From the NCBI GenBank assembly GCA_000002445.1, contig AL929603.2:256001-320000 (forward strand): DNA of 64,000 bases, written 5' to 3'. A program made the translations under genes and the position numbers. The stretch comes from Trypanosoma brucei (Eukaryota). Below, piece by piece: positions 4,024-32,581 of the stretch (within the stretch, counting starts at the first letter, position 1; every line of letters starts with the position of its first letter). The notes beneath the pieces are model-generated. The model was not told where the DNA came from. It ran no database searches and saw nothing but the letters and a program-made list of their open reading frames with translations.

Positions 4024-4767
4024 TTAAGCGTCAATTTCACTTTTGATTTTGGCCTTCTCCTTGCTGTATACACTTTCCAGTACAGAAACTCCCACCATTT
4101 CGTTTATGGCGGCTAGTTCCTTCCGCCTTGCAGCAACTTCATCCGAATAGCCACGGTCAGGCGAGTAGTTCAACTGCAAATCTTGTGGGTAAAACCTCTT
4201 AAAAACAACACCATGAGCTGTCAGGTATCCGAGCACTACAAAACATATGGCGCTGTAATATTCGCGTGTTTCTGCACCTCCTCGACCCTCTCGATCCCGT
4301 CGCTCGGCCTCAGCTTCAGCTTCAGCAGCCTGTTCATAGTTTCCACGTTCAGTCAATCTACGTTTGCGATAAGCGAGTTCATTCCGGCGAGCCCGGTGAG
4401 TCAGTGGGTGGTCCGATAGTGTGTTGCTGTGCATCGTACTTTCGTACAAACTAGCGGGGGAGCGGCGAATGGTGAAGATGTTATCCGCCTTTTGCTTCTT
4501 CTCCTCTATTGGGTCAGATTTGTTGGAACTCCCTACGCTGGCCGCTGCCGCTGCGGCCCTGCACAAATGCACACACATCCGGCGCATTGTCAAAAAAATA
4601 AAAATAAAGGGCTGCGCAGCACTAACGACACTTGGGGTTAAGGAAGGAAGAACAGCAAAGACAAATTTTAAAAGGCGCCGCAGATATGACCACCAATACC
4701 CTTGTGCGCAACTCAAGGAGAGGACACTTACATGATGTATCATGATAATAATAACGACGTTAACCAC
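4024..4767 (-). CDS. Hypothetical small protein with one predicted TM helix (YYSAICFVVLGYLTAHGVV). The ORF N-terminus (IIIMIHH) is translated UTR-like sequence; the true start is probably Met at 4587 (MRRMCVHLCRAAAAAA, presequence-like) or 4434.
   Basis: ORF in the minus-strand gene cluster. The C-terminal 130 aa have balanced composition and a charged helical tail. Confidence 0.45.
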   Translation of the reverse strand: MVNVVIIIMIHHVSVLSLSCAQGYWWSYLRRLLKFVFAVLPSLTPSVVSAAQPFIFIFLTMRRMCVHLCRAAAAAASVGSSNKSDPIEEKKQKADNIFTIRRSPASLYESTMHSNTLSDHPLTHRARRNELAYRKRRLTERGNYEQAAEAEAEAERRDREGRGGAETREYYSAICFVVLGYLTAHGVVFKRFYPQDLQLNYSPDRGYSDEVAARRKELAAINEMVGVSVLESVYSKEKAKIKSEIDA

Positions 4768-14300: not shown

Positions 14301-17300
14301 TAATTATCCAACACATCGATGAACTGCTGATAAACGACTTCACTCCATGCTTTCCGCGCAGCGGCAGTTTCTGACCTTCGCTGCGCGACCACCACCTCCA
14401 GCCGACTATCGCTCAGCATGGAACTGCACGTCTGATGAAGCAAATCCACAAGTTGTGCGAATTTCGCGCCCGTCGAGTCGGGCCTCACGACGACCTTCTC
14501 TAACGCCCTTGCCAGGTGAGCTTCCTCCTCTGCTTGCAACCCCTGCAGAAGCAACCTCTGCCGACTACAACTGCCTCTCATTGATAATTCTTCTGACCAA
14601 CTAAACGCCGCATCTAAGCGCGAGAAATATACCAGCTCATTCCTTGCGACTTCTCTCTTTACTAGCCACTTGTACATGGGGTCAATTGGTGTTCTTGGAA
14701 CGAGCATTCGGCACCGCAACACCCCAACAAGAGCTATGCGACGCAGGGAATCATCCGGAGTGAAATCATTGCTGTGCACTATCATTGATAGCACCGGACG
14801 CAAGGCATCAATAAGTGGATTTCCTTGAGTTTCGGCTAGGAGAGTGCGCAGTTTGCTTAGTAATTGAACTAACATGGCAGTGGAGGGTTCTTCCGGAACT
14901 GAAAACCCATTCGTGTTCAGAGCACGATGCGGGACTTGGCACATCTCCAGTAGAGATAGAGCATCAGTCAGACAGTTTGCCTCCCATTCTTCAAATGGGT
15001 CCACCTTCGGCATAGGCAGCACACGGCAAAACTCCAACAGGTTATCAAGAGCACGCACATGGGGATTACTCTTTGAGTCGATTGCTGCGACCGACACCTC
15101 TGCGGCATAGTCAAGTGCGTCGCTAGCAAGACTTGTCCAAGACCCACAAAGAATGTGACGCCCACCGTTCAACCCGTACCGCGATAAGAAGTTAGTTGTA
15201 AGTAGGGGCACCAGTGAAGATAGAGCGGCAGCATCACGTTCCACAACAAGCGGTATGGTTGTTACCTCCCGCCACAGGGTCACATTGAGCTGTGGTACAA
15301 CGCGCAACTTCGTACAGTAAATATTAACAAACTCGAGAACCTCGCACTGCAGACGTTTCGCAACAGGCACAGAGCAGTTCGCCCTCAACTGTTGTGCCCG
15401 AAGAACCAGTGAGAATTCAGCCCGAAATATTGCACTGTCCCAGAGAGATTTCAGCAAACATTCGTGCTTTTCATGTAACGCGCTGGTAGCCGATGCCTTC
15501 CATGCAACCAGCGCCGCTCGCTCTTCCGCTGTCGTTATATGAGGGCGAACGATGCGTTTTCGAATGTTCAACCCCTCCAACACGAGCTGAAATGGAAGTC
15601 CAAGATAATTGCGCAATGACGATAAAAATTCATCTACGGCGCCAAAAAAGATGTCGGCGGTTGAGCCCAACTGCTTCTTTATCACAGAACGAATAAGTAA
15701 TACGTTCGTCAGCAGCGAAACGTAGTTGTCCACATTAATTTGATATTGAGGGAACGACGAACACACCAAACGCGCCAGTGGCCCCAGTAGCCGAAAGATC
15801 CGTTGCTGAAGAGACGGAGAAGAAAGCACCTCGACTACCTTTCCCATCGCGGAAAGCACTCGGTTAAAAGAGTTGTTGACCACCGGCGAGTCTGAGATAA
15901 AAATGTTAGCGTCACGAAGGGCTTTTAGTGACGACGCGTGTGGCCCCAACACCGGTGCGGAGGAGCACCAGATGGAATCTAGGTGGGCAGCGGCATCAGT
16001 TGTGGGCTGCAGAGATATAAGCGAAAGCACATCATTCATGCCCTGTTCAGACAGAGCATCCCCAATGGTCCAACAAAGTAATTGTCTCCGGGATTCAAAC
16101 AAAATATGGCTCAGAACACCGTCGGCACATTGATCAAGCACAAAATAAAGCACTAGATCTGATAGAGAATGACATTTTTGGTGACTTCCCTCGGCGGTTA
16201 ACTGAGCCCTTAGAGCCAACCCACTGCGAAGGACACGAATGCGTACTAGCGCTTCTTCTACGCTTTCTAGGGCCGATCCACTACCCTCACTGCTTCCAGT
16301 CACGGAAAGGGCGCTCAGAAGATCTGCTACGGAGGGAAAACACCTGCATGCATCTGACTCCCCTGCGGCCACAAGCATATCCAAATTCGTGGCCACCTCA
16401 TCCTTTCGAACATTCCAATGTCCACAACGGTTGTCAATGTATTTGTGACGAATAAACATCTTGAGGTCCTCCAGGTTGCTTGCCGCTGAAAGCATTGAAG
16501 CAGTCTTCACTAGGGTAAAAGTGTTAGGCGTACCTGAAGCTAGAGCGTCTGAAAGCTGAGTAGACATAGGCAAGGCAGAATCAGCGCTGAACAGACTGCG
16601 CAGAAACTCACGGTGGTAGCGGTTTAACATCTCAAGGTGCTCTACGCTTCGGCATGACGTACTTGCTCCGCTAATCGCGAGACTCTCCAGTGAAGGTATT
16701 TCCACTGGATGGACATAGATTTCAACCGCTCGGTTTCTCATAGCCCTCGACACCTCACCATACTTAGGATCGAGGGTCATGAAGAGACGAAAATTCGGGT
16801 GAGGTCGCACGACACGAACTTGGCCGTCAACAAGTCCCTGTTCATTCACAGAAAGCATACCGTTAGGCTCAACAAGTGGGTTGAGTCGATCCAGCACGCT
16901 GGCATTGCAGTAATTAACGTTGTCAAGAACAAGCCAATGACCACTTTGCATGGCCTCCAAAATCAACGAATCGCTCCACTCGAATTGTCCCTGTTTACCC
17001 TCCACCTGATCAAAACCGCCCAGCAGGTCAACAGTGTCACAACTGGCGTTCATAGAGAAGGTTAGCAACCGCGCTCCCGCGAGTGCCGCTGCGGCTCGAA
17101 TGCAAAATGTTTTACCGGCGCCGGTCGGGCCCGCCAATATGCAGAGTTGATTCTGCTCGGCACATGTAAGCAATGAGCGAACAACCCCCGCCTGAGAAGG
17201 GAGAAGCATCAAAGAGTTGTACGCGGTATCAATGAAAGGATTTGATCCCTGCACTCTGCGTGTCAGGAACCGAGACCCAAAGTGCACTGCATCATTTGCG

Positions 17301-20300
17301 ATGAGAAAGTGGGATTCCTGAAACGTGAGGCCACACATAGCGGAACTCCCAAATATCTTCTCAACCAACTCAACTGTTCTCTTCCGGTCAGTGTCAGTGC
17401 GCATACGTTGTGTGAAGAGCATGTCGACAAACTCACACGGCATGTCCATCACGCCGTATGCTTCCATCAACTTGGCCCAGCGTAAGATGTCACGCAAGTT
17501 GAACTCCCAAGGACTCCCGCGAACACCAAACGCACGGCGAACGACCACCTCTCGGTGGAGTTCATCTACGAAGCCCACCATCTTGCAGAGGGTTGCCTCA
17601 CCGATACCAGGAGCGACGGCAACAACAATACGCATAAGGTCTTCAACGTCAAAAGGCTCGATTCTTACCCTTGTGAACCTGTTTAGGAAGCTGCGAGGGA
17701 GACCCTTTCTCCCACCTCCTTCTGCTAGAGGGTTTTGACAAGCAAAAACACGAAAACCATCTGCAGCCTGAAACTCCTCACCCAACTCCGGAATGAAAAC
17801 CGTAGAGCGATGATCGAGAAGGGCGTTGAGGCCTTCCAGGACAGATTGACTTGCGAGATTCAGTTCGTCCAGGATCACCCACCACCCATTCTTAAGCGCA
17901 TGTAGGAGAACGCCGTCTGACCACGAAAATTGCGGACCGCCGGAGTCTCCAGAGGAGGGACATGGTAAAAACGTGCCGAAAAGATCCATTATATCGGTTT
18001 GCTCGCTCAAGTTGACACGGACAACATGTTTCCGCAGGGCACACCCCAGTGCTTCGACGATACTTGTCTTACCAACACCAGGGCTTCCTTCCAGCAGAAT
18101 TGCACGGCGCATAATGCCCGCGCGAACGAGTTTGGATAGGTTTCGACTGGTAGAGGGCGCGCCGAAGAAAAAACGCCCCTTCATCTCAGGAGGTAACGTC
18201 GGTTCCTCCAGTGTGTCGAAGAGCTCCCAGAAGGGCTCACGCAGACAATCACTGCTCACTTTACAAACTTCCCTCACTTTCGCTATGAGTGCCTCACGCA
18301 AACCGTGTGTTCCCATGTCAGATTGCCCAGTGCCCACACCGACACCGTCGAGAATGACGGCGTCAAGACCATGGACAAACGACACTTGTTCGTCACAATG
18401 ACCATCGGCAGCATTCATGAAACTAACCCAGCCAATTATGTCGCGAATGCTTATGTGCTGCGGCACCCCTGCAACTGAACATACGCTCGCTGCATCACAC
18501 AGTAGTGAGGCCATATGCGCCGCCCAGTGCGAAAGATTTTGATTCAACCGCTTGGAAAGAATAAGGGTCACCTCTTCACGCTCCACTGTTGGTCTGACAT
18601 AAATTTCAGTAAACCTGTTTCGAAGAGCGGGCGACAGCTCGCGCTTTCCAAAATCTCCACCAGGGTTCATTGTTGCAAGAATGCGAAAGTCCTCATGGGC
18701 GAAAATGACATCTGCTGTGCTCTTTTCAGCAAGGGTTACTGTTCGACCCGGTTCAAGGACACTATTCAACCTCTCAAGGACGCTATCCTCAGCAAGGGAG
18801 ATTTCGTCCAAAACAAATACCCCTCCTTTTAGCATGCATTCAACCAGCGGGCCATTTCGCCATTGAAAAATTGCGCTGCTTTGCTGATTTGGAAGAGCAG
18901 GTCGAAGGCTCCCAAGAAAGTCAGCAGCTTCACTATGCTGATGACAGTTGACAATACTAAGCCGACGTTGCAAAATTGCTGCCCAAACTTGGCAGACTGT
19001 TGTCTTGCTGCTTCCCGTCTCCCCCACCAACAACACAGGTTCTCGGTGAAAAAGACAAATACCTACCACAGTAAATAAACGCAACATGGACTCAGTCCAC
19101 ACGATACCGAATTCCTCCGCCACACGACTTTCCACATGCTTGTAGTGTTCGGCAACGTACGGCCAATGATGTGGTGAATAAATGTCACCTTCGTTGAGCT
19201 CAGTTTTTGTGATCGACTCAATAACATCCTTAACGATCTGGCGCTCCTCAGTCTTCCGGCAACGCTCTACCAACAAGAGAAACCCATGTTCTGCCATTTC
19301 CTGATATGTCCCAGGGCACCGCTCAGCCCAACGAAAAAGATCCCGCGGAGTCACGAAACCGTGACGACCTGCAAATACCCGAGAACCCTGACGTCGTATT
19401 TGAAGAGTGGTCATGACCTCCACCATTTTTTCGGCAAAACTCGGACTAAGAGAGTACCGTTGACAAAGAATGGTGCACAGCTCTGTGTTGGGTATATCAT
19501 CGACGGTGATTTCCAAAAATCGATTACGAAACGCTCTTGATAAGAGCTTGCGGCCCCCGTACACACCTGCTGGGTTCTGAGTGGCAAATATGCGCAGATG
19601 TGGATGAGGTTTTATTGTTTCTTGAGTGTCTGCGACAAAAAGTTCATGGTTATCATCAAGTAAGCGATTGAGGGCCTCCAGGACTTCAGTGGGGGCAAGA
19701 TTCAGTTCGTCTAACATAATCCAATACCCATTGCGCACGGCGTCAACTAAAATACCGTCTACAAAGCGGAGTTTACCGCGTTCATCCGAAATGTAGTGAC
19801 CCACATATTCCTGAATTTCCGTACTCTCGTGGTTATTTATTCTGATGAACTTGTGCCCCGTAAACTCGGCAAGGTACTTCACCATGGAGCTTTTCCCGGA
19901 TGATGTTGGACCCTCTAACAGTACCGGCCGATCCGCGAACACTGCTCGAGCGACGTTCAACAAGTGCCCTTTAACACTAGGTGTTAAAATAAAGGACTCA
20001 TCCTTGCGAGGCTCCTCCGATCCAACAGGTAACCAAATGTGCTCATACGCCACAAAACGTCCCCCAGAAGGGCAACGCGGCAGGGTCGGTCGCGGTGGCT
20101 CTCCATTGCCAAATACATGTTTCTTAATTAATTGTTCAACAATAGAGTGAAACTGCCGCTCCAGAGGAGTTGCAAATCCCAACATTAAACCGTCAAACAA
20201 AGCGAGGGCAAACCCATACTGCGATGTGGCTTTCCGCACATAAGTAAGAGCACGTGTCAAAGTCCTCAAACTAACTGTGGGTGGCTTCGTCCCGCCATCC

Positions 20301-22186
20301 AAAGAACATAAAGCCGATTTGGCCTTTCCAACATACTCTAGGAAAAACGAAGTCACCTCTTGAATCTTGCAATCCGTTGCCAAGTGGCCAATAAACTCAC
20401 TAACCACAATGCTAATATCACCCTGCTCAAAAGGCTCACTAACATATATCTCGGTAAATTTGGAGCGCAGCGATGGCGGAATATCCTTCTTACCGACGTC
20501 AGTAGGGGGGTTCATGTTTGCAAAAACGTGAAAATTTTTGTGCCTCTTAATTGGTTCGCTTCCAACCTTATCTGTCAGATATAACGCATCAACATCCCCT
20601 AAGACAGCCGAAACTCTTTCCAGTATCTCGGTAGACGCAAGATTCACCTCATCTAAGAGGATCCAGTAACCCTCTCTCCATGCCCTGGTCAAAGACCCTT
20701 CTTCAAAACGAAAGGCAAATGTATTCCTCGTGGTGTGAAGTGTCGCCAACAAATCCTGGGTTACATTCTCGAGATTAAGCCATCGCTCCTGGAGTTCAGT
20801 TGAGAAAGGGTGTTGAATATTCTTCAACTTAAACGAGCTGCATCCCTTAAGAATTTGTCTGACGACGACGAGCCACGAGCACTTTTTCATTGACATCTGG
20901 ACTGCGCTGAGAAATTCTGCATTTCGAGAAGCGTTAAAACATTGCGAAAAAAGATCCACAAAATCCTGATACGCGTTCCTCACAGCAACACCCACGTCGA
21001 GTGGTTTCCAACCTCCCATGAAATCACTTGTATCGGTTTGTTGGTCAAGATTGTGAACAATCAGCTTTTGACCAACCTTGTCGGCAAGATACTGAACGAC
21101 AAATGTTTTTCCAACTCCAGTTTCACCTGTCAAAAGGACATTCTCCTGTGCATCAACAGCGGCTGCTATCCGTTCCAAGAGAGACATGGAATGTTTGGTG
21201 GCTGCAAATACCGCAGTAGTTTTTAGATCGCCACTCAGGCAACCATACAGGGGCAGTGTAACTCGACCAACGGTAAAGTACTCCGCTCCCGATCGCATTT
21301 CCGGTTTGCTCTGGTAAGCAAGCGAATCGGCAACATTCGGCAAAATACCTACACATTCAGCCATAATATTGATGATGCGGATCAATTCATCACATTTTGG
21401 GAAGCCTGCCAACATACAGTCGTATGCTTCACGAAACATCATCTCACGAATTGTGGATGAAATAAATTCGTTGGAGAGGTTGGTGTTGGGAAGCCTCCTG
21501 CTCACTCGTTTGCACCACTTAAGTAACGACCGAAGGGTCACTAGTGAAGTGCCAAACAAACGAGACGGAAGGGTCGTCAGTGCAGAAACTACGCTTCTCG
21601 GAACGGAGTACAACGACGTTGCGACAACACAAATCTCCTCAGGGGGCAAACTTTTTAATACCGTAACCCCCCAAAGTTCACCAAAGGGTACGGAGTTACT
21701 CTTACGCGTCGTAAAAGTGTCACCAACAGATCGCAACTGCTGGGTGGCAATAATTCTGAAATTCGGATGGGCATTGATGCGTTTATTTTTATCCGGCAAA
21801 AATAGTGTAGACTCCTCAAGAAGAGAAAGTAAAACTGAAAAAACATCGAACGATGCTAGATCGATATCTTCCATTAGAATCCACAGACCATTTGCTACCG
21901 CAGTAGTCAGAGGACCTGGTACCCATTCGAACGCTCCGGGCACATCTGTTGCTGAGAACTTCCCAAGCAAGTCCCTGCTATCAAACGAATCGTCGACGTT
22001 TATCTGAATCATTGTACTGTACGCACCACATTCTTCCGCTAAGGCCTTAACAAAAAAACTCTTACCACACCCAACCTCACCTTGAACGAGAACAGCCCGT
22101 GATGTGTCAAGAGTTACCTTAAGGTTTCTGAGGTTCTGTTCGCTCACGGCCGTCAAGATCATTGTCTGCCAACCAAGCATGTACAT
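8384..22186 (-). CDS. MDN1: Midasin (MDN1/Rea1) ribosome-biogenesis AAA ATPase, 4600 aa. It has six AAA modules (Walker A sequences GEVGCGKS, GETGVGKT, GPTSSGKS, GETGSSKT, GSPGVGKT, GPTGAGKT), a long helical linker, a D/E-rich low-complexity region, and a C-terminal VWA/MIDAS domain.
   Basis: The C-terminal stretch EQLRLILSPTVADKLQGDYKTGKRLNMKRIIPYIASQFKKDRIWLRRTKPNKRSYQILVALDDSLSM matches the Mdn1 MIDAS region closely. It also has a six-fold AAA array and an acidic linker. AAA1 Walker A lies at residue about 37, so there is no long N-terminal domain. Confidence 0.95.
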   Translation of the reverse strand: MYMLGWQTMILTAVSEQNLRNLKVTLDTSRAVLVQGEVGCGKSFFVKALAEECGAYSTMIQINVDDSFDSRDLLGKFSATDVPGAFEWVPGPLTTAVANGLWILMEDIDLASFDVFSVLLSLLEESTLFLPDKNKRINAHPNFRIIATQQLRSVGDTFTTRKSNSVPFGELWGVTVLKSLPPEEICVVATSLYSVPRSVVSALTTLPSRLFGTSLVTLRSLLKWCKRVSRRLPNTNLSNEFISSTIREMMFREAYDCMLAGFPKCDELIRIINIMAECVGILPNVADSLAYQSKPEMRSGAEYFTVGRVTLPLYGCLSGDLKTTAVFAATKHSMSLLERIAAAVDAQENVLLTGETGVGKTFVVQYLADKVGQKLIVHNLDQQTDTSDFMGGWKPLDVGVAVRNAYQDFVDLFSQCFNASRNAEFLSAVQMSMKKCSWLVVVRQILKGCSSFKLKNIQHPFSTELQERWLNLENVTQDLLATLHTTRNTFAFRFEEGSLTRAWREGYWILLDEVNLASTEILERVSAVLGDVDALYLTDKVGSEPIKRHKNFHVFANMNPPTDVGKKDIPPSLRSKFTEIYVSEPFEQGDISIVVSEFIGHLATDCKIQEVTSFFLEYVGKAKSALCSLDGGTKPPTVSLRTLTRALTYVRKATSQYGFALALFDGLMLGFATPLERQFHSIVEQLIKKHVFGNGEPPRPTLPRCPSGGRFVAYEHIWLPVGSEEPRKDESFILTPSVKGHLLNVARAVFADRPVLLEGPTSSGKSSMVKYLAEFTGHKFIRINNHESTEIQEYVGHYISDERGKLRFVDGILVDAVRNGYWIMLDELNLAPTEVLEALNRLLDDNHELFVADTQETIKPHPHLRIFATQNPAGVYGGRKLLSRAFRNRFLEITVDDIPNTELCTILCQRYSLSPSFAEKMVEVMTTLQIRRQGSRVFAGRHGFVTPRDLFRWAERCPGTYQEMAEHGFLLLVERCRKTEERQIVKDVIESITKTELNEGDIYSPHHWPYVAEHYKHVESRVAEEFGIVWTESMLRLFTVVGICLFHREPVLLVGETGSSKTTVCQVWAAILQRRLSIVNCHQHSEAADFLGSLRPALPNQQSSAIFQWRNGPLVECMLKGGVFVLDEISLAEDSVLERLNSVLEPGRTVTLAEKSTADVIFAHEDFRILATMNPGGDFGKRELSPALRNRFTEIYVRPTVEREEVTLILSKRLNQNLSHWAAHMASLLCDAASVCSVAGVPQHISIRDIIGWVSFMNAADGHCDEQVSFVHGLDAVILDGVGVGTGQSDMGTHGLREALIAKVREVCKVSSDCLREPFWELFDTLEEPTLPPEMKGRFFFGAPSTSRNLSKLVRAGIMRRAILLEGSPGVGKTSIVEALGCALRKHVVRVNLSEQTDIMDLFGTFLPCPSSGDSGGPQFSWSDGVLLHALKNGWWVILDELNLASQSVLEGLNALLDHRSTVFIPELGEEFQAADGFRVFACQNPLAEGGGRKGLPRSFLNRFTRVRIEPFDVEDLMRIVVAVAPGIGEATLCKMVGFVDELHREVVVRRAFGVRGSPWEFNLRDILRWAKLMEAYGVMDMPCEFVDMLFTQRMRTDTDRKRTVELVEKIFGSSAMCGLTFQESHFLIANDAVHFGSRFLTRRVQGSNPFIDTAYNSLMLLPSQAGVVRSLLTCAEQNQLCILAGPTGAGKTFCIRAAAALAGARLLTFSMNASCDTVDLLGGFDQVEGKQGQFEWSDSLILEAMQSGHWLVLDNVNYCNASVLDRLNPLVEPNGMLSVNEQGLVDGQVRVVRPHPNFRLFMTLDPKYGEVSRAMRNRAVEIYVHPVEIPSLESLAISGASTSCRSVEHLEMLNRYHREFLRSLFSADSALPMSTQLSDALASGTPNTFTLVKTASMLSAASNLEDLKMFIRHKYIDNRCGHWNVRKDEVATNLDMLVAAGESDACRCFPSVADLLSALSVTGSSEGSGSALESVEEALVRIRVLRSGLALRAQLTAEGSHQKCHSLSDLVLYFVLDQCADGVLSHILFESRRQLLCWTIGDALSEQGMNDVLSLISLQPTTDAAAHLDSIWCSSAPVLGPHASSLKALRDANIFISDSPVVNNSFNRVLSAMGKVVEVLSSPSLQQRIFRLLGPLARLVCSSFPQYQINVDNYVSLLTNVLLIRSVIKKQLGSTADIFFGAVDEFLSSLRNYLGLPFQLVLEGLNIRKRIVRPHITTAEERAALVAWKASATSALHEKHECLLKSLWDSAIFRAEFSLVLRAQQLRANCSVPVAKRLQCEVLEFVNIYCTKLRVVPQLNVTLWREVTTIPLVVERDAAALSSLVPLLTTNFLSRYGLNGGRHILCGSWTSLASDALDYAAEVSVAAIDSKSNPHVRALDNLLEFCRVLPMPKVDPFEEWEANCLTDALSLLEMCQVPHRALNTNGFSVPEEPSTAMLVQLLSKLRTLLAETQGNPLIDALRPVLSMIVHSNDFTPDDSLRRIALVGVLRCRMLVPRTPIDPMYKWLVKREVARNELVYFSRLDAAFSWSEELSMRGSCSRQRLLLQGLQAEEEAHLARALEKVVVRPDSTGAKFAQLVDLLHQTCSSMLSDSRLEVVVAQRRSETAAARKAWSEVVYQQFIDVLDNYGGYEDVTLTVSEPALSATLAAYIGYYMQTRPVRKSMIFSVPDAVRMMHFPSTSINSPVLPSSGSQSLQQRLAYLDSCLLLVQCTPARVIKRDFVEKLFDSYRELYRAVEELEAKERSEQELSVLYKEKAVIIEGDDEAHMGLLKQLFPSYEEEFIRARDAEDDKMEDATNDEVDLNPAPKPEVSALSTGRHARLMLSGPQGAKYMQRLLDTHYHFFESLLELNDGGAFCGDRHLEAFKGVFDVVSKELRGWGCSGVYEDGSLVRAEDEQMMAGGFAARATLLSKCLFSSETPLSEAKAIKFNIFTDPAPSELRAFNPSLLSLMQAITELSAAYPDTPSLRRCSRIATCLAALPVLTTPLMKVMTGCEILLRECYEWERNASRDTSIMDHMTHLSTFVLRWRRLELHCWGQVFAAKREEWELKVGKVWFSLCDLTGVQQPIPMEELQDRYAKFFHYCMDFMWGARCGDFHARLRLLKAFAFHLAAAGRRSSFPLANASCHLTDFFTQYSQLVEQKLRIALSPIEEDMEEFTRIMRWEDSTYYAVRATAEKSHLKMGRGLASLEDVLRMPVLQIISTEEQRCEDDQAMGFTLASLQLEEKNGKKNKKQGAQGAVDIGLKRSRMGRINAKAKTAVSGCEAPPGGEDADSAEGKLPGYMSEGVEFLKFAANEIIERVNALQARSVPQNQKLRALKTLFTVMEEKGVPHTHALQVSGWEELFATSSALLPCRNIHKHLVASKRIEEAAQEYYRGVRWLQRMRDAEKHPHKDLSDAQVKRGAGTAESLFAVAVQEAELIGNFCEVHQQIALLRDFISTCEDRAVPTGAEQLHASMEMCVQLQSFVYDVRWMLQEHIFDLEGSRSTIDELYCLTEELWKLCCTTEGQRRAEIPIADAIMEQYGALYGRVRLVCSRLCSTGVGCVDSASSKLCESLDLLGESINCAVTASMPTRAVSAKRNRTEVGAQWEGKVTVMVESLESAFAKNDGLTDFFASSPGHQQKEENSTGGGGTDLVYRRYAETVGKLLAEARTAHSSLHTLLHDETHDRKISSAARTQLLSRLDVCVEHVGLLLQGATRALLAQSHLTLVVSRLLCILFRKGFCKSEEEEEEDGDGDGESGDGNQLDGTGMDDGQGEKDVTDQIENEDQLMSAKDKNDEEQEEKQQDKGDGSSDGEDNAADVETDFAAPKERRDDDDEEDEDDGDESEREMGSVDGEEVQERKRMKKETNEGNDLDSDDGGNADDVPEDELANEEESIDGNEGDQETANFENREAAIREAEEQQQGEDHDLAADVLEGGENDSHDGGDGDGESNTCSDEGEREGSEGDDDDNAGDSDDEAHNGSGEASSVLSDNARDIEGEDNGKDDNEGEGTCDSGDFCEDKEDDWADENVYNGGQQDEHAGEEATEEREKESKKRPRAAQQEAGTTEEQQPGEEEQQDEAGRNWKRQNRDERTQHRDNAERHNTSRNPYRAIKEAVERHQRSVQQLNLNKRVEVKKHREADNQQQNEQQSNRKEVVDEFEFDEEGEEEGMAATDEKPVVPTEATNNLPEQREVADPFSESGTSEELDEGNDEDTPPRHRKHAVEVSVDTESSEEEGDEEDAEKKKARRHVKVASKIRNDNEEEEDSFDDDDKTADSTGGGEYDKLCRGRELWQEQTAAVHTLSHQLCEQLRLILSPTVADKLQGDYKTGKRLNMKRIIPYIASQFKKDRIWLRRTKPNKRSYQILVALDDSLSMQCNNAGIMSCRAVALIAEALQQLEVGELGIACFGKETRIVHEMHEPFVAESGPRAFSEITFAQKSTNLKLLLETTLDYLDDARRRMNGQIRSSTQRLQQMMFIISDGQITEDRMELRKLLMRAEENHQMVVFVLLDVKASGGENDNNGAAPLAPISAKELAGMTPAQRMRRLKAERDSRLQRVKSNSVLDMQLVEFRDGSVVRRSYMEEFPFPHYLIVRELETLPSAIADALRQWFELLNVQH
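9350..11240 (-). repeat. Low-complexity coding region inside the midasin CDS (purine-rich GAG/GAC/GAA repeats).
   Basis: Translated as about 600 aa of D/E/G/S/N-rich sequence. This is the known acidic linker preceding the midasin MIDAS domain. It generates spurious long antisense ORFs. Confidence 0.85.
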
Positions 22187-22430
22187 TTCAAATTAAGTGA
22201 ACGTCAAAAAGGGGTGAGAAGAGTAAGTTATGTCAGGCTCAAAATGACGAGTCTGCGTTACAAAAATCCTCCATCATTCTCAGCATTAGTTTCTTTTTTA
22301 AAAGGGGGAGGAATAGAACGGAGTTAGACAGAACATGATATTCAGAAATACTGGATCTCAGCTCCTGCATTTGGCATGTCCACACATCAAAAAAAAACAT
22401 ATACTATTGGCAACATGTGCGAAAGGGCAT

Positions 22431-23201
22431 CTACTTCCTTTCGCGTGTACGCTGCAACCGGCTACTCCTTGTTGGCCCACCTCTTTGGGAAGCAATTTGT
22501 GTTTCACCACAATTACTTCGTGCAGCAAATTTCATTATTTCCTCCAGCTTGGAACGATTTGGATAGTGTTGCTTAGTTTGGCCACTTTTCAGAAACCTTA
22601 CATAACTCGATATATTCATTTCGTATTCGAGAAAGGACGCAAGATTCATCGCTGTTGTTTTGTCATGAGTGGCAACGCGATCAAAAAACGGTAACATAAT
22701 TTCTTTTGGCGCTGTCACACCAGCTGCAAAGAAAACGGCCATCACCTTCATGGATATGCACGGGCAGCTCACAGTTTTCAACTTATCGTACAAAAATTCC
22801 TCACCAGCGAGGGGTCCGTCAGCAACGTCGATGAATACGCGAAATGGAATGTTCTCAACGCTGTGTGGTGGTTGTGATTCACATGTCTTTGCATTCATCG
22901 AATAACGGTTCCTGGTGGATGCGCTTGTCTGCTCCGTCGGCATCAGCTTTGGTAGTGAGGAAACACGCGATACTTCTGTATAACAACAACCAATAGGCCT
23001 CGTCTTGCAGAACGCTCCGTCAGGGACATCAACAGAAAAAGACAAACCATGCGCATCAAACCCTTCAAGGAAACCAATAGCGGCAACGAGCATATTAAAT
23101 AAGGCACCTTGGGGTACTTTCAAGGTCAAAAGCCCCGTAACAGCCGCGTACTTAAAACGAGCAAGAGACCTCTGGCCACAGATTGCAACTGTCCGATTCA
23201 T
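22431..23201 (-). CDS. Hypothetical 256-aa protein immediately upstream of midasin on the same strand. It may be a separately encoded midasin N-terminal domain (speculative).
   Basis: ORF with protein-like composition. A pyrimidine-rich tract lies on the minus strand upstream of its ATG (23210-23420). The segment ASFLEYEMNISSYVRFLK weakly resembles yeast Mdn1 N-terminal domain LAYYRLLYHNKEVFARFIQ at a compatible spacing from AAA1. Confidence 0.45.
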   Translation of the reverse strand: MNRTVAICGQRSLARFKYAAVTGLLTLKVPQGALFNMLVAAIGFLEGFDAHGLSFSVDVPDGAFCKTRPIGCCYTEVSRVSSLPKLMPTEQTSASTRNRYSMNAKTCESQPPHSVENIPFRVFIDVADGPLAGEEFLYDKLKTVSCPCISMKVMAVFFAAGVTAPKEIMLPFFDRVATHDKTTAMNLASFLEYEMNISSYVRFLKSGQTKQHYPNRSKLEEIMKFAARSNCGETQIASQRGGPTRSSRLQRTRERK

Positions 23202-26200
23202 CCAACCATCCCAAAGGCTTAAAGAACTTCAATGGGGAAAATAGGAAAAGATATACAGTAAGAAGTGAGCTTTGAATACATAAATAACAGGCCAAAATAC
23301 AGATGCAGCCCCATACCGTATAAATGGGGGGAAACAAAAGAACAACTGGTATACCCCAGCAAATACAAGACATTTGTGGTGGGAAAAGAACGCTGAAATA
23401 GGTACAACCAGGTCCGGTTGCCATTTCTACGGAAAGTCTGTATTCAGCGCATCCGCGGGGTGATCTAACAAACAATCTCACACGTACACGCACTGATGGA
23501 TCGGTAGATAGTGTAGACTTCCACTCCAAAATAGTAAAATGAATTTAATTTTCATCGTCATAAAGAAACACTAAACATATCACTCAAAATAACAACAATT
23601 TTCATGCTTCAGCGCGGCTCGTGGTTACAAGACGCCGTGCACCGGTCAGATCTAGGTGGCATCATTTCATTACGCAATTACCATTCATACAAACTACGAG
23701 GCAAAAGAAGCGAAAGAAAACAAACTTTCCACTAGCAGCTATCACGGTAGTAACGTAACGCATTGATCTCCCTCTTGCTTTATTTAAAAAAAAAACAGAA
23801 ACGCTGAGGACTTCTACGGGAATCTAACGTCCGGTAAAACGTCTCTACGACACTGTCATTTCTGTCACTCCAATGATCACTAGCACACGCCTATGCTTTT
23901 TCGCGGCGAGTTCAACAATTTATCCGCACTTGATACGACAAAAAAACAGATGGGGGTAGATGCACCGGGAGATTTACGCTCCTCAATGACACTTACGAAA
24001 GCAGAAACAAGCAAAAATGTGATATTTACACTAGAAAAAAGTTCATTCGGGATGGTGGTCTGCTTTTCGAAGTAGCTATAACCGGCAAAAGCAGCAATAA
24101 AGAGCTGAAAAGACTGATGGGGCCCGTCAACCGGTGACATCAGTAAGGAATATTATTACCCCCCGCCTCTTCTCTCCCCCTCGAGCGGTCCAAACTTTCG
24201 CATTAACACGAGGTAACACCATATGTAACGACTCGAATAACATTTGCTCCTTTCTCGCACTGACCAGCAGATCATACAAAAAACGTTAAAACGGCGAACC
24301 ACGTACATATATCGCACCAACTTCTCAACACAGCAGTTGCAATCCCACTTCACATACAGAAACAAAGAGAAAGTGTACAACCTACGCGACGTCAGAAGAT
24401 CCGATAGCGACCCTCGGCATGGTCCACACACTACCTGCGGTCACACATGCCAATAAAAAAACCCGCTGAGTATTTATTATCACTAAAGGGGGAATGCAGA
24501 TCACAGCGTAAAAATACGTTAGTAGTGGGGAAAGCCCGGGAACATATACAGTTACCGATGTTCAGCAAAGGGCGCGGGAAGCTGTCCTCCTTTGATTCGT
24601 CTAGTTTCGAGCCATTTAACGAGAAAAGCAATCTCCAGAGGCAGCACCAAACACTCTCAAGGGCACCGAAACCAGGAACACATCTCCCAGAAACAATACA
24701 CAAACCTTTAAGACAGACCCCCTAGAGAAACGCCCACAGTGCAACACCACACCATGGAACCGGGTAGAACAACCTTAAGTCCGCTTCCGCACCCCCATTC
24801 AGCTGTCACGTGCTGGTGGTCGATCCAAAGCTCTCCTTGGATCATCCTGCTGGCTCACCCACCGTAGTCGTACAGGTTCCTGTTCTCTTCCGATGGAGGT
24901 GCCACAAAAATATGGCTTCCACGGACACAAAAGACGCTATTTCAGTCTACACAGCTAAGAAATCAGGTATTATCTAAACTGCAGTCAACTAGATCACACC
25001 TCGGCGGAGCAGGAGGACCAACGAACCCGTCTTCTTGGTTGGGGTATTTCTCAACGATGGCGGATGCCAGCCTCTCCACGACTCCTCACCCTTTCTTTCT
25101 CTTTCCTAAAAGTGCTGGAGGTAACTTCAGTTCCATCTCGCCACTGAGCACCTTCCTCCTCGAGCTTACCGATCCGTGTTTCTCCCTCAGAATCTAGAAC
25201 CCGTCGGGCTCGAGTGGTACCAAACCGTACCTACCACCCAACATTTTAATTCGCGGCGGGCACTCCTCTCATCTCACTCCCCATCCCCCCATGGCCGCAG
25301 GCATCGGACATGCACCTCGTGGAGGAAATCTCACCAACGCAAGCCACATCGCAGCCCCTGCACTGCCGGACTCCGACGCCGGCTTCCGCTCCTTGACCCC
25401 AACATCGAGCAGCCGCCACGGAACGCGACTGGCCCCAAAGTACACTGGCATCGTCTGCAGCGCGAATAGGTTCGAGCTCCCGCTAAGTTTATCAAACTCG
25501 ACACACTCCACCGAGCCATGTACGGTAGCCGGCTTCAACTGCACCCCAGTTCCTGCAACCCTCCCCCCTCCATCCATGAGCCTTCTCACCCATAGCACCT
25601 CGTTCCTGTTCGGTTGAACTACCCTCCGTGGACAAGGCACCCCATGCCACCGCCAATAATTCTTTCAACGGCACTATGGGATCAAGCGCAGGCTTAAAGC
25701 TGCTGCACATCGCCATCGTCCTTGCCAAGAGCGCCCTCTTACACGCCAGGTTGTTAAACTTCCCACCGACGACCCATTTAACTTCATTGTCATTCCACCG
25801 CCCTGCTTTCGGGCTAGTTGTTGCCCGTAATCACACAATGCAAACTACGATCGCGCTATAGTCACCCTTTAGCGCCACCACTACCGCAGCATTGCTGTCG
25901 CCAAGACACCGGTGAACCTCTATTTTCGTTGCAATCGCTGTGATTCATCTTGGTTCTGCCCCTTCCACACGAAGTCGGGTACACGCATATCCTTTGTAAC
26001 CCTTCTCCGCCCCCAAAAATTTCGCCGAGAACCGTGCTTATGTTCCTCGTAGTGTTGGTGTTCCCTTTTTATGACGAATAGGAGGACACCGGCACCACGG
26101 TAAATATATTTGTTTTTTCTTCGCACCCGATGCTACTCGGCTTCCGCTGAATTTGGTACACATGCCGGCTGAAGTTGACGCCTGTATTTATTTGTCGTTG

Positions 26201-29200
26201 GGTTCAAATTCTAATTTTGCGCAGGTCTCCATTTTTAGCACTTAACCCCCTCAAGCCCTCGCCTCACTGCTCCTGTAACACCGACGCCATTTACACCGTG
26301 GCGATCACAGCCTACTCTGTTTTTTTTTTTTACACGCCACGACAGCTTGCTACCATGTGTTTCCCATCCCACCGCCCCCGTTACCCATCTCACTGGTGCC
26401 AGAGACTCACGTTCTCAATACAACGCCCTATCATTACGTTCTTCATTTCCCGTATTTGAAAGATTTGCGACGGTTGGTGCGGGCCATCTTCCACTCAAAG
26501 GAAACTCACATAGTTGTCGTTTCTGTCTCTCTGTGACGGCAATTGTTCTTTTCTATGCATCTACTCCACACTGTTATCACATCGGTCCACTTAATTCCAC
26601 CATACCTGAGTGGTTGGCGCCTCCCGTCCCATGTCATACTGTAATGCGTTTTTGGCCGCAAGGGGCGTTAGGTTCTATAGATTCGATCTCTGTCAGCAGT
26701 CTGTCCTTCATCCCTCTCATTTTGTATCACGCACGCACTCGGTACGTGCACCCCTTCAGATTTGCTCGCCTGTTCGTTGGAACGATGAGACCTATTGAAC
26801 AATTTTGTGCATATGCACTGCTGGGGGGGGGGGGGGTTCCTCGATGCTCCTACTCACCTGAGAAGCGGCTTGTCGATCTTATTTTTGTCGTGCAGTCTCG
26901 TAAATAGCGTTTCCTTACCGCATACTTCATTGTCGCCCACCTCGGATAAAACCAGATTTATTCTTAGCACATTGCGGAGTACCACCGCCTCTCCCACAGG
27001 AGCGGAGCTTATTCTGCTTTGAACGTCCTCACGACACGTGGAGAGGTGCAACCCCACAAACGCTTTGTTTTAACTTCAACCTCCCCCCCGTTTCGTATCC
27101 CTGCTCTTGCACTTTGCCACCCAACGATGACACCTGAAGTGTTTCGTTGCGGCCATGCGAAACCAAGGCGGAAGAAATCTCTTCTATAGGTGTCGCATGC
27201 TTCCATCTACATGTAAAAGGGAAAACGACAGAAAGGAGGTCTCCAGCTCGTGTTGGTTTCATTGACTGTGCTATAGTAAGCACGTCCCCGATTTCTCCAC
27301 TTCCGTGAAATATACAGTAAATATGAGTAATACACTCAGGTTACATTGGTGGTGGATCGTTCCCCTTGTCGGCCATCTTGGAAGTGATTTCGCTTAACTC
27401 TGAGCACGGGAGTCGGGGGCGCACTGCACCGATATCAACATATTCCTACCAGCGAGTCCAGGCATCACTTTCCCCATTTGACAACACAGAATACCGAGTC
27501 CTACGCATGCAAGGCTTATATTTAAAGCAACGAAACATGCTGTGAAGTTGGTAAGTGCCATTTCCCCACTCTATGATTCATTTTCTCAGACATTTTGAAC
27601 CTAGTATTCATTGCAACACTCTTTTATTCGTAACGGGGCATCAACATATCGGTTTCCCCACATTCCCCGGTCATGCTCTCTCTGTCAAATGCGCGGGATC
27701 TGTGAAAGAGCGTGCGCCTCCCCATGTGAGTCATAACCACAACTCTGATGGTGATCAGTTGTACGCTTTTCCACTCTTTTCATCTTATGCATCATCCCTC
27801 AGCGTACTCACTTGAGAAGCTCGTGTGCGCGCTCTTTTGGTCAGACGTAGTGCGTCTGCCTTGCACGGGGTGGGGTCATCGCAGTTCTCCTCGCCCTTTT
27901 ACCAGACGACAAGAGTGACAGATCTCATTAGGATAGGGTGACCTTGACAACGTAGCCATCCCACGGTCACTACGGGTGTTCCACAATTGGCTTTTAACAT
28001 TTATAGGTAACCAACTCCGCGCCTACAAAACATTCGCACAACAGTGGTATGCCGCTCATCCTTCGCCACACCTTTGTTTCACGGCCCAGTCAAACAGTCG
28101 TTTCGATGATACCCCCCTTAACTTGTACGTTCGCAACCGCGCTTATACCAGCAGAGGGTAGAGAACTATGAGAGGTTTATTCCTGAGAACACTTCGTTTG
28201 TACAACCCTGAGGTGGAACGAGTGGGCCGCATCGCTCCTCTGGCCTTGTCGCTACGAAGGAACCGTTTTCAGCCCCAGAAATCACGGCCGCGGTGTTTCA
28301 CATACTCCATTCGCACGCTCGAAGGTGTCATTCATCGGTTAGGCCGTTAGCCCCTATTGTTTTGAACTTGTGCTTTCACCTTGATGGGCTTCACTGATCG
28401 CAGTTGTCAGGCCGCCCGTAAAATGCCCCCCCAAAAGGTGCAAACCCTGCTTTTTCGCAGCTGACTGCTGAGGGTTCGAAGGATAACCATCGTAACCACA
28501 GCGTTCCTTCCCTTCTGCAGATTCTTCTCTCTTCCTTCTCATCATTTTGTTGTTTAAAGAAAGTTGTGTTGAGGTTGGAGCCTGTATCTTCAGACGTTAG
28601 TTACAAAGGGGACTCACTACAGTTTTTGGCTGTGTGCGTTATCAACTGAAGTGCTCTTGCTGGGGGAGTGATTCATCTAAGTGGGCCTCTCTCGATTATC
28701 ATACAAGAACGAATGTCTGTTGGAAGATGAGCGAATTTTTCACACTAGTTTCGCGAATCTCTTGTATAATCTTGTTGGGATCCACTCTGTGAAGGGTTTC
28801 GGAATAGACAAATAAGAGGCCGAAGACGTTCCGAAGCTTCTGGGACATTCAGCGGCTCTTCGGTCGTCATATGTTCTCGCAGTTTTCTCTCTCTATCACC
28901 TTTGAGATGGTGAGTGTGGTACGGGGAGGAGGCGGGACAGGATTTAACCCTTCAGATATATTCAGAGTTATGGAGTAATTGCGCATCTTCTCCCCCGGTG
29001 CGATGTGATTCTCACACCAAGTTTGTCGTCAAGAAGGGTTGGGAATTAGGAACTACTGGGGGTTCTCAAGAGTCTTAGCACGAATTTATGCTGTTCGTTT
29101 TCAACAGGAACTAACCCTTTTCCATTATCTTATTCCAGTAGTGTTTTTACCCTTCGGTATACCCGCAGTACGTGTTTGTAGCGTTTTGATGGCATCGTGG

Positions 29201-32200: not shown

Positions 32201-32581
32201 GTTTGTGAGTCATACCAAGCGCCAAACCTTTGGGTTCAACTGTTTGCCAGTATTTGTGTTGAGGTCATTGAAGTTGTGTGGGCGTTTTGTAAGTTGTTGT
32301 AGCGGGGGTTTTAACAGCGATGGTAAGACTGTGATGAAACGCGCCATCCCGTTGTTTAGATTGTTGCCCTCTTTGATATCACCCAGTGCTGCCTCGTGTT
32401 CGCAACGATTCTGTGTTAACAAAACACGCACCATTTTACGTTTTTAGTTGTCTCAGAGGTCGCGGGGAATGCCAATAAATCATAGTACTTGTACGATGCT
32501 TGGCTAATTGATACGGTCTTGCACTTTTCAAATGCTTCTCTTTCTTTTTTTACTTTCGTTGACGAAGTTGCCTATTTTTAA
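23202..32581. promoter_or_regulatory. Divergent strand-switch region, the presumed bidirectional Pol II transcription start region between the minus-strand and plus-strand gene clusters. It is about 9.4 kb with no ORF longer than 186 aa.
   Basis: Gene orientation flips here. The plus strand is A/C-rich from 23.5 to 26.2 kb and T/G-rich from 27 to 32.5 kb, consistent with transcription away from a centre near 26.3-26.9 kb. Homopolymers T12 (26320-26331), G14 (26823-26836) and T14 (29822-29835) are present. Confidence 0.7.
26823..26836 (+). promoter_or_regulatory. G14 homopolymer at the compositional-skew switch point of the strand-switch region.
   Basis: The sequence shows ctgGGGGGGGGGGGGGGttcc. 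G-tracts are a known feature of kinetoplastid divergent transcription start regions. Confidence 0.4.

What the first reader, a model, noticed from the sequence alone, without database searches (positions are those of the whole stretch)
22187..23201. Midasin lacks its N-terminal domain; a separate 256-aa ORF sits 244 nt upstream on the same strand (possible gene fission)
The midasin ORF begins MYMLGWQ with the AAA1 Walker A (GEVGCGKS) at residue about 37. Characterised Mdn1/Rea1 proteins have an N-terminal domain of roughly 300 aa before AAA1. Directly upstream (22431..23201, minus strand) is an independent 256-aa ORF. One of its segments (ASFLEYEMNISSYVRFLK) weakly resembles a yeast Mdn1 N-terminal domain segment, and its distance to AAA1 (about 155 aa counting the gap) matches the yeast spacing. 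I translated the 244-nt gap on the minus strand and it has stop codons in all three frames, so a single sequencing frameshift cannot fuse them. Instead the gap carries a pyrimidine-rich tract (ttctattcctccccctttt ... cttactcttctcacccctttttgacg) just before the midasin ATG, like a trans-splice acceptor region. This suggests either that the N-terminal domain is expressed as a separate polypeptide, or that midasin here has genuinely lost it and the upstream ORF is unrelated.
Basis: partly seen in the sequence, partly recalled or inferred. Interest (0 to 1): 0.6.

Follow-up and report, generated by a model that had tools for sequence, protein, structure and literature searches.

The report
Trypanosome midasin lacking its N-terminal domain
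In Trypanosoma brucei the giant ribosome-assembly motor midasin starts directly at its first ATPase module, with no N-terminal domain, and the small gene just upstream is a separate trypanosome-only gene with no detectable relationship to the missing domain, so a gene split is not supported.

Summary
The window is T. brucei chromosome 1 (window coordinate + 256,000). Midasin (Tb927.1.880, 8384..22186, minus strand) has its AAA1 Walker A about 37 residues from the annotated start. A 256-aa ORF (Tb927.1.890, 22431..23201) lies 244 nt upstream in another frame, with stops in all three frames between them.

Published spliced-leader and poly(A) mapping shows two separate mRNAs. The midasin splice site (window 22165) lies inside the annotated ORF, so translation starts at Met9 (MILT...). 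That is the start seen in five other Trypanosoma species. The N-terminal domain (NTD) is therefore truly absent, not mis-assembled.

The upstream ORF is a real, fast-evolving gene. It was found only in Trypanosoma, always sits next to midasin, and is the first gene of its transcription unit. It has two N-terminal helices, a disordered middle, a TPR/PPR-like helical domain and a basic C-terminal motif.

Profile-sequence, profile-profile and Foldseek comparisons show no link to the Mdn1/Rea1 NTD. These tests are weak: a genuine NTD profile also fails to find the yeast NTD.

A trans-acting replacement is not excluded. Interest is modest.

The parts
8384..22186 (-). Annotated midasin ORF (Tb927.1.880, 4600 aa): six dynein-type AAA modules, a diverged linker and a C-terminal MIDAS domain. 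There is no N-terminal domain.
   Evidence: ORF. AAA_5, AAA_lid_5/7 and MDN1_4th Pfam hits. MIDAS domain matches S. pombe Mdn1 4419-4648 with E 1e-64. Gene ID from PMC9585242 and from the coordinates in Kolev Table S1.
8384..22162 (-). Probable real midasin CDS, starting at Met9 (MILTAVSE..., 4592 aa).
   Evidence: The major spliced-leader site (138 reads) is at window 22165, inside the annotated ORF (Tables S1/S4). Orthologues in T. congolense, T. conorhini, T. cruzi and T. theileri start MILTP(T/A)SE, and T. rangeli contains the same Met.
22166..22167 (-). AG trans-splice acceptor used for midasin mRNA. The first transcribed base is 22165, and the 5'UTR is 3 nt plus the spliced leader.
   Evidence: AG at +19/+20 of the annotated ATG. 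SAS 278165, dinucleotide 'ag', 138 reads (Table S4).
22206..22223 (-). Polypyrimidine tract (CTCTTCTCaCCCCTTTTT). It is the nearest such tract upstream of the used acceptor and is inferred to drive midasin trans-splicing.
   Evidence: No AG lies between this tract and the acceptor at 22166-22167. The functional role is inferred from the standard kinetoplastid coupling model.
22293..22343 (-). Cluster of poly(A) addition sites of the upstream ORF's mRNA (3'UTR 88-138 nt). It spans a second pyrimidine tract at 22300-22313.
   Evidence: PAS 278293, 278300, 278315 and 278343 (Table S5). They lie 128-178 nt upstream of the midasin SAS, within the typical 123-178 nt coupling distance reported by the same paper.
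22431..23201 (-). Tb927.1.890: a 256-aa protein found only in Trypanosoma. Conserved N-terminal block aa 1-55, disordered aa 47-130, helical-repeat domain aa ~131-229, and a C-terminal R-x-S-(R/K)-L-Q-x-x-R motif.
   Evidence: family alignment. (AF2 models). (only generic TPR/PPR/Sel1-like fold matches).
23202..23226 (-). 5'UTR of Tb927.1.890. The major spliced-leader site is at 23226 (108 reads).
   Evidence: SAS 279226, 5'UTR 25 nt (Tables S4 and S12).
23227..32567 (.). Divergent strand-switch region (Pol II transcription start region) between Tb927.1.890 and Tb927.1.990 (enkurin-domain protein).
   Evidence: Kolev Table S14 lists .890 and .990 as the first ORFs of divergent units, and gives the major SAS of .990 at 288568, which is window 32568. 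Enkurin Pfam hit. GC-skew sign change near 28.5 kb.

Best explanation
Trypanosoma midasin is a genuine NTD-less variant of Mdn1/Rea1. Its mRNA is trans-spliced 3 nt before a conserved Met, and that Met sits five to six residues before helix H0 of AAA1. No N-terminal domain can therefore be encoded on the transcript.

The 256-aa ORF upstream (Tb927.1.890) is an independent gene. It is the first gene of the polycistronic unit and has its own spliced-leader site and poly(A) sites. It encodes a fast-evolving protein, found only in Trypanosoma, with a short helical-repeat (TPR/PPR-like) domain.

The ORF sits next to midasin because gene order within trypanosomatid transcription units is conserved, not because it is a detached piece of midasin.

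What is shown:
- The gene boundaries and the separate mRNAs.
- The conserved short N-terminus in six species.
- The family distribution and synteny of the ORF.
- The absence of any detectable similarity to NTDs.

What is inferred:
- The ORF is unrelated to the NTD by descent.
- The ring-linker junction, which the NTD scaffolds in yeast, is stabilised in cis by lineage-specific changes in the strongly diverged region after AAA6.
For: - Organism and locus: the T. b. gambiense protein is 99% identical, and the coordinates match Tb927_01_v4 exactly with an offset of 256,000.
- Midasin 5' end: SAS 278165 with 138 reads. All three mapped SAS lie inside the annotated ORF, and the gene is listed in Table S1 of misannotated starts.
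- Conserved start in orthologues: T. congolense, T. conorhini, T. cruzi and T. theileri begin MILTP(T/A)SE, and T. rangeli has the same Met at position 10. Midasin gene calls of 4597-4656 aa in T. grayi, T. vivax and T. theileri begin 172-304 nt after the ORF.
- No NTD counterpart: T. brucei residue 9 or 11 aligns to S. pombe 132 and S. cerevisiae 290.
- Separate mRNA for the ORF: SAS at 279226 (108 reads) and four PAS sites 128-178 nt upstream of the midasin SAS. This equals the normal coupling distance.
- The ORF is real. An exhaustive phmmer search gives 7 representatives of 253-266 aa, all those with names being Trypanosoma. Three blocks are conserved. The order enkurin(-) / ORF(+) / midasin(+) is the same in five other species.
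- No link to the NTD:
  - Two ORF-family profiles and the single sequence against PDB sequences, including full-length Rea1/Mdn1, give no midasin at E <= 10.
  - hhalign against a profile of genuine NTDs gives probability 0.3% over 8 columns.
  - hmmsearch bit scores are negative.
  - Foldseek against PDB with the whole-protein model and the domain-only model gives a best E of 2.2 and 1.2, with no midasin chain.
- Architecture differs. Real NTDs are a helical region, then a variable stretch, then a conserved (C/A/S)G-x-x-L-(P/Q) motif about 10-25 residues before AAA1. The ORF ends in a basic RxSRLQxxR motif.
- Tb927.1.890 is absent from hyperLOPIT tables that list midasin (nucleus) and the next gene, Tb927.1.990.
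Against: - The negative homology tests have little power. A profile built from four bona fide NTDs also fails to find the yeast or S. pombe NTD among PDB sequences at E <= 10. NTD sequences therefore diverge beyond sequence recognition even among true homologues.
- The structural test is weak.
  - The ORF models are only moderately confident (pLDDT 49 for the whole protein, 69 for the domain).
  - I could not run a positive control for Foldseek on the NTD.
- Both the Rea1 NTD and the ORF's C-terminal domain are all-helical, and their sizes are comparable (about 100 aa against about 130 aa in S. pombe).
- In yeast the NTD fills the place of the missing AAA6 small domain and scaffolds the ring-linker junction (PMC6286127). 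Something has to compensate, and a trans-acting subunit is a legitimate candidate.
- I could not examine Leishmania or more distant kinetoplastids.
Confidence: 0.75

Rival explanations
1. Gene fission. Tb927.1.890 is the ancestral midasin NTD, separated from AAA1 by a new stop codon, poly(A)/trans-splice signals and a new start codon. It has since diverged beyond recognition and still assembles with midasin in trans.
For: - It lies immediately upstream, on the same strand, in every Trypanosoma examined.
- All these midasins lack the NTD.
- The ORF has an all-helical domain of roughly NTD size.
- NTDs evolve so fast that lack of sequence similarity is uninformative.
Against: - No similarity at any level tested.
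- The order of elements differs from real NTDs, and the conserved pre-AAA1 (C/A/S)G-x-x-L-(P/Q) motif is not at the ORF's C-terminus.
- The only hhalign match is 8 columns in the middle of the helical domain, with P = 0.18.
- The protein was not detected where midasin was.
- Adjacency is expected anyway from conserved synteny.
Confidence: 0.05
2. Non-homologous replacement. Tb927.1.890 is unrelated to the NTD by descent but is a lineage-specific midasin cofactor that fills the NTD/AAA6S position or otherwise regulates the motor.
For: - The NTD's scaffold role in yeast suggests a need for compensation.
- Linkage is strict in the genus.
- Helical-repeat domains are typical protein-binding modules.
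Against: - There is no direct evidence.
- Co-transcription in trypanosomes carries no functional implication.
- The protein is absent from the hyperLOPIT tables.
- Its N-terminus is basic, with no acidic residue before E46. This would fit an organellar targeting signal as well as anything else (inference only).
Confidence: 0.1
3. Artefact. The NTD is encoded upstream but hidden by a sequencing or assembly frameshift, or the 256-aa ORF is a chance ORF.
For: None beyond the initial impression that a canonical domain is missing.
Against: - Stops in all frames of the gap.
- Independent assemblies of seven species show the same two-gene arrangement, with a conserved ORF stop region and a conserved midasin start.
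- SL and poly(A) sites are mapped between the genes.
- ORF length and motifs are conserved at 19-33% identity.
Confidence: 0.01

Closest known systems
Midasin / Mdn1 / Rea1 (S. cerevisiae Rea1, S. pombe Mdn1; PDB 6HYP, 6I26, 6OR5, 5JCS)
   Same: - A ring of six dynein-type AAA modules with midasin-specific lid domains.
- AAA1-AAA2 aligns over about 430-490 residues.
- C-terminal MIDAS domain.
- Nuclear / nucleolus-periphery localisation in T. brucei according to TrypTag and hyperLOPIT supplements.
   Different: - It has no N-terminal alpha-helical domain. The protein begins a few residues before AAA1 helix H0, whereas S. pombe has about 130 and S. cerevisiae about 290 residues there.
- The region after AAA6L (aa 1829-2628) has no detectable sequence similarity to the yeast linkers.
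Rea1/Mdn1 N-terminal domain (NTD)
   Same: The ORF lies where an NTD would be encoded if it were fused. It contains an all-helical domain of comparable size.
   Different: - No sequence, profile or fold match.
- Different arrangement of ordered and disordered parts.
- It lacks the conserved (C/A/S)G-x-x-L-(P/Q) motif just before AAA1.
- It is a separate mRNA and polypeptide.
Short alpha-solenoid repeat proteins (TPR / Sel1 / PPR / HAT type)
   Different: No Pfam repeat family is matched in any of the 7 members. The Foldseek E-values are not significant (>= 1.2). The resemblance is generic to helical hairpins.

Membership tests
Midasin (Mdn1/Rea1) - for ORF 8384..22186 | Six tandem dynein-related AAA modules with midasin lid domains | tested here: met
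   AAA_5 (E 1.6e-63 and 3.5e-65), AAA_lid_7, AAA_lid_5 and MDN1_4th. phmmer to Rea1/Mdn1 gives E about 1e-125.
Midasin (Mdn1/Rea1) - for ORF 8384..22186 | C-terminal MIDAS domain | tested here: met
   The last 450 aa match S. pombe Mdn1 4419-4648 (E 1.1e-64) and the isolated MIDAS structure 6QT8 (E 5e-62).
Midasin (Mdn1/Rea1) - for ORF 8384..22186 | N-terminal alpha-helical domain preceding AAA1 | tested here: not met
   The alignment starts at T. brucei residue 9-11, against residue 132 (S. pombe) and 290 (S. cerevisiae). The mRNA 5' end is 3 nt before Met9. Orthologues have the same start.
Midasin (Mdn1/Rea1) - for ORF 8384..22186 | Nuclear/nucleolar localisation and a role in 60S assembly | not testable with these tools
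   From the literature only: TrypTag 'nucleolus periphery points' and hyperLOPIT 'nucleus'. Function in trypanosomes has not been tested.
Mdn1/Rea1 NTD - for ORF 22431..23201 | Sequence or profile similarity to known NTDs | tested here: not met
   No midasin hit at E <= 10 with the single sequence or with two family profiles. hhalign probability 0.3%. Negative hmmsearch scores. Caveat: the control NTD profile also misses the yeast NTD, so the test has low power.
Mdn1/Rea1 NTD - for ORF 22431..23201 | Same fold as the NTD in Rea1/Mdn1 cryo-EM structures | tested here: inconclusive
Mdn1/Rea1 NTD - for ORF 22431..23201 | Physical association with the AAA1/AAA6/linker-stem junction | not testable with these tools
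   This needs IP-MS, multimer prediction or cryo-EM. The only indirect datum is the protein's absence from hyperLOPIT tables.
MaoC-like dehydratase / peptidyl-prolyl isomerase (names given to orthologues in public records) | MaoC hot-dog domain or PPIase domain | tested here: not met
   No such Pfam hit in any of the 7 family members at E <= 1. The names appear.
PPR/TPR repeat proteins - for ORF 22431..23201 | Recognisable repeat motifs (Pfam PPR/TPR/Sel1) | tested here: not met

The most novel reading that the evidence does not exclude
Tb927.1.890 is a trans-acting subunit of trypanosome midasin that occupies the site filled by the cis NTD in yeast, the position of the missing AAA6 small domain at the ring-linker junction. 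It would have arisen either by fission of the ancestral gene or by recruitment of an unrelated helical-repeat protein. Trypanosome midasin would then be the first known two-chain Mdn1 motor.
Probability: 0.12. Interest if true: 0.6.

Novelty: new variant of a known kind. Interest (0 to 1): 0.3.

Why it matters
In yeast Rea1 the NTD is described as the scaffold that replaces the missing AAA6 small domain and holds the AAA ring to the linker stem. A natural midasin that lacks it entirely, in an organism where the protein is expressed and nuclear, has two possible implications. Either the scaffold is dispensable, or it can be supplied in another way. This gives structural biologists a minimal ring-linker junction to study. 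Midasin is essential in the organisms where it has been tested (from general knowledge, not checked here), so a parasite-specific junction, or a parasite-specific partner if the trans-subunit idea proved right, could be relevant for selective inhibition. As it stands the result is mainly a correction: the gene-fission reading is unsupported, and the annotated start codon is 8 codons too far upstream.

Tried and rejected
- Word-indexed homologue searches with the ORF and with its family profile returned only Trypanosoma entries because of candidate caps. Nothing was learned about Leishmania.
- The search with the midasin N-terminus returned only fragmentary gene calls. Full-length midasins did not appear, so I could not obtain Leishmania, Bodo or Euglena N-termini.
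- The afdb50 fold library was unavailable.
- Chen et al. 2018 (the S. pombe Mdn1 structure, PMC6289053) is not held.
- TrypTag supplements held as text do not contain Tb927.1.890. The spliced-leader-trapping supplements of Nilsson et al. contain neither gene.
- I tried to locate a compensating insertion after AAA6 by aligning T. brucei aa 1829-2628 to solved midasins. No similarity at all was found, so the question stays open.
- I searched the whole window in six frames with a genuine NTD profile. Nothing scored better than E about 4.
- The public names 'maoC-like dehydratase' and 'PPIase' for the ORF family were considered and rejected.
- A frameshift or assembly artefact was considered and rejected (and the orthologues).
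- Prokaryotic and phage comparison tools are irrelevant here (no match).

Full report
**Locus and observation**

The window is Trypanosoma brucei chromosome 1. The 256-aa ORF is 99% identical to a T. b. gambiense 'hypothetical protein, conserved'. The annotated coordinates of Tb927.1.880 in Kolev et al. 2010 (278186..264384) equal window 22186..8384 plus 256,000. Tb927.1.880 is named midasin/MDN1 in PMC9585242.

- A 4600-aa minus-strand ORF beginning MYMLGWQ, with GEVGCGKS at residue 37.
- A 256-aa ORF at 22431..23201 on the same strand.
- A 244-nt gap with stop codons in all three frames. The two ORFs are in different frames.
- Pyrimidine tracts at -127..-114 and -37..-20 relative to the ATG.

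The large ORF is a bona fide midasin. It has dynein-type AAA_5 modules with midasin lid domains and a C-terminal MIDAS domain (E 1e-64 to S. pombe Mdn1).

**The NTD is really missing**

Against solved structures, T. brucei residue 11 aligns with S. cerevisiae Rea1 residue 290, and residue 9 aligns with S. pombe Mdn1 residue 132. So about 280 and 123 N-terminal residues have no counterpart.

Published single-nucleotide transcript mapping (Kolev et al. 2010, PMC2936537) settles the gene boundary:
- The only abundant spliced-leader acceptor site of Tb927.1.880 is 278165 (138 reads, AG dinucleotide), which is window 22165. This is 21 nt inside the annotated ORF.
- The two other mapped sites (one read each) are also internal.
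- The gene is listed in Table S1, 'misannotated translation start codon'.
- This fits the sequence. No AG lies between the proximal pyrimidine tract and the annotated ATG. The first AG is at +19/+20, and the next ATG, at +24, is Met9.

Translation therefore begins MILTAVSE, 3 nt after the splice site. The orthologues of T. congolense, T. conorhini, T. cruzi and T. theileri begin MILTP(T/A)SE, and T. rangeli has the same Met. Midasin gene calls of 4597-4656 aa follow the ORF in T. grayi, T. vivax and T. theileri. The protein starts five to six residues before AAA1 helix H0. The loss is conserved across the genus and is not an assembly artefact.

**The upstream ORF is an independent, real gene**

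- Tb927.1.890 has its own major spliced-leader site at 279226 (108 reads, 5'UTR 25 nt).
- It has four poly(A) sites at 278293-278343 (3'UTR 88-138 nt).
- These lie 128-178 nt upstream of the midasin splice site. The same paper reports a typical coupling distance of median 142 nt, interquartile range 123-178.
- Table S14 of that paper lists Tb927.1.890 as the first ORF of a divergent Pol II transcription unit.

An exhaustive phmmer scan of 1.84 billion representatives finds seven family members of 253-266 aa. Those that carry names are all from Trypanosoma: T. brucei, T. congolense, T. grayi, T. theileri, T. cruzi and T. vivax. A T. conorhini copy was found by synteny. Identity to T. brucei is only 19-33%, but length and three blocks are conserved:
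- An N-terminal CGQxSLxRxKY...SAVGFLEGY block.
- A central EE..Y..L......LLLASGITIPRE...L.DRLA..D..AA..IASLLE.EL block.
- A C-terminal RxS(R/K)LQxxR motif.

The order enkurin gene (opposite strand), strand-switch region, ORF, midasin is identical in T. cruzi, T. conorhini, T. theileri, T. grayi and T. vivax. The ORF-midasin gaps are 172-353 nt. The T. congolense copies are each on a 3468-bp contig, probably the same one.

**Is the ORF a detached NTD?**

I found no positive evidence.
- *Sequence.* phmmer of the ORF and hmmsearch with 3- and 8-sequence family profiles against all PDB chain sequences, which include full-length yeast and fission-yeast midasin, give no midasin hit even at E <= 10.
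- *Profile-profile.* I recovered genuine NTDs from metagenomic midasin genes whose AAA1 exon continues upstream in frame for 265-344 residues (L006, L008, L023, plus a partial L009) and aligned them.
  - hhalign of the ORF family against this NTD profile gives 0.3% probability. It aligns 8 columns (AGVTAPKE against CGVVLPRL) with P = 0.18.
  - hmmsearch scores are negative.
- *Architecture.* Real NTDs have a helical region, a variable stretch, then a conserved (C/A/S)G-x-x-L-(P/Q) motif about 10-25 residues before AAA1. The ORF has two N-terminal helices, about 85 disordered residues, a helical domain of about 100 residues, a variable tail and a basic terminal motif.
- *Fold.*
  - The whole-protein AF2 model is poor (pLDDT 49).
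  - A domain-only model is moderate (pLDDT 69, core 75-83).
  - Foldseek against the PDB gives no significant match and no midasin chain for either model. The best E-values are 2.2 and 1.2, and the top hits are Sel1/TPR/PPR repeats.
- *Proteomics.* Tb927.1.890 is missing from hyperLOPIT tables in which midasin (assigned 'nucleus') and the next gene, Tb927.1.990, are listed consecutively. Midasin itself is annotated 'nucleolus periphery points' in TrypTag data.

**Limits of these negatives**

- A control matters here. The profile of genuine NTDs also fails to detect the yeast or S. pombe NTD among PDB sequences at E <= 10. NTDs diverge beyond sequence recognition, so sequence tests cannot exclude ancient homology.
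- I could not run a positive control for Foldseek.
- In yeast the NTD takes the place of the missing AAA6 small domain next to AAA1L, and it scaffolds AAA6L and the linker stem (PMC6286127; PMC6920918). Something must compensate in trypanosomes.
- The region after AAA6L (aa 1829-2628) shows no similarity to yeast linkers at E <= 1e-3. It is free to have evolved cis compensation, but I could not show this.
- Conserved adjacency is not informative, because synteny in trypanosomatid polycistronic units is generally conserved.
- I could not obtain Leishmania or deeper-branching kinetoplastid sequences.

**Verdict**

The real start is Met9, not the annotated ATG.
- The fission interpretation is not supported.
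- A trans-acting role of Tb927.1.890 at the ring-linker junction, homologous or not, remains possible at roughly 0.1-0.15. It is directly testable by tagging with IP-MS, multimer prediction or cryo-EM.
- I found no paper in the held library discussing trypanosome midasin architecture. The NTD-less state is a modestly interesting natural variant of a well-known motor rather than a new kind of system.

Noticed in passing
window 22160-22186 (minus strand): The annotated midasin start codon (22186) lies upstream of the mapped spliced-leader site (22165, 138 reads). The real start is Met9 at 22162, with a 5'UTR of only 3 nt beyond the spliced leader. The gene is already listed as misannotated in Kolev et al. 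2010 Table S1, yet the sequence still reads as an ORF from the upstream ATG.
   Followed up: yes
window 23202-32581: A 9.4-kb divergent strand-switch region. Its longest ORFs have no Pfam hit, and it has no tRNA or Rfam match and no tandem or dispersed repeats. GC skew changes sign near 28.5 kb. The same region is only about 0.6-3 kb in T. grayi, T. theileri, T. cruzi and T. vivax. Kolev et al. map a novel transcript (Tb1.NT.20) at window 31496-32456 (+). Why it is so expanded in T. brucei is unexplained.
   Followed up: partly
P0008, P0009, P0010 (orthologues of window 22431-23201): Public records call the orthologues 'maoC-like dehydratase' (T. cruzi, T. grayi) or 'peptidyl-prolyl cis-trans isomerase' (T. 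theileri). No family member has any such Pfam domain, so these look like annotation-transfer errors.
   Followed up: yes
L086 1-700 (ENA metagenome contig, protein P0006): A midasin-like gene from an unidentified AT-rich eukaryote, 36% identical to T. brucei AAA1-AAA2. It also appears to start about 45 residues before the AAA1 Walker A, with 556 nt of pyrimidine-tract-rich sequence upstream that contains no ORF longer than 34 aa. This could be an independent NTD-less midasin, or an upstream exon could lie beyond the contig.
   Followed up: partly
L001 10001-20849 (T. cruzi PRFC01000169.1): In this T. cruzi assembly midasin is broken into at least six consecutive gene calls (349, 982, 249, 166, 349 and 1023 aa). 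The CL Brener copy is listed as a 'pseudogenic transcript' in a hyperLOPIT orthogroup table. These are probably assembly frameshifts in a 14-kb gene.
   Followed up: no
window 14303-16702 (midasin aa 1829-2628): The stretch after AAA6L, where yeast has the linker stem and middle domains, has no detectable sequence similarity to S. cerevisiae or S. pombe midasin at E <= 1e-3, although the AAA ring and the MIDAS domain align strongly. This is where any cis compensation for the missing NTD would be sought.
   Followed up: partly
Moloney et al. 2023 supplement, orthogroup table: Tb927.1.880 shares an orthogroup with Tb927.11.4750 and two Tb11.v5 entries. This suggests a second midasin-related AAA gene or duplicated assembly copies in T. 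brucei.
   Followed up: no
A5 alignment (L006, L008, L009, L023): Genuine midasin NTDs from diverse eukaryotes share almost nothing except a (C/A/S)G-x-x-L-(P/Q) motif about 10-25 residues before AAA1. The NTD profile does not even recognise the yeast NTD. This is a useful warning for any homology claim about this domain.
   Followed up: yes
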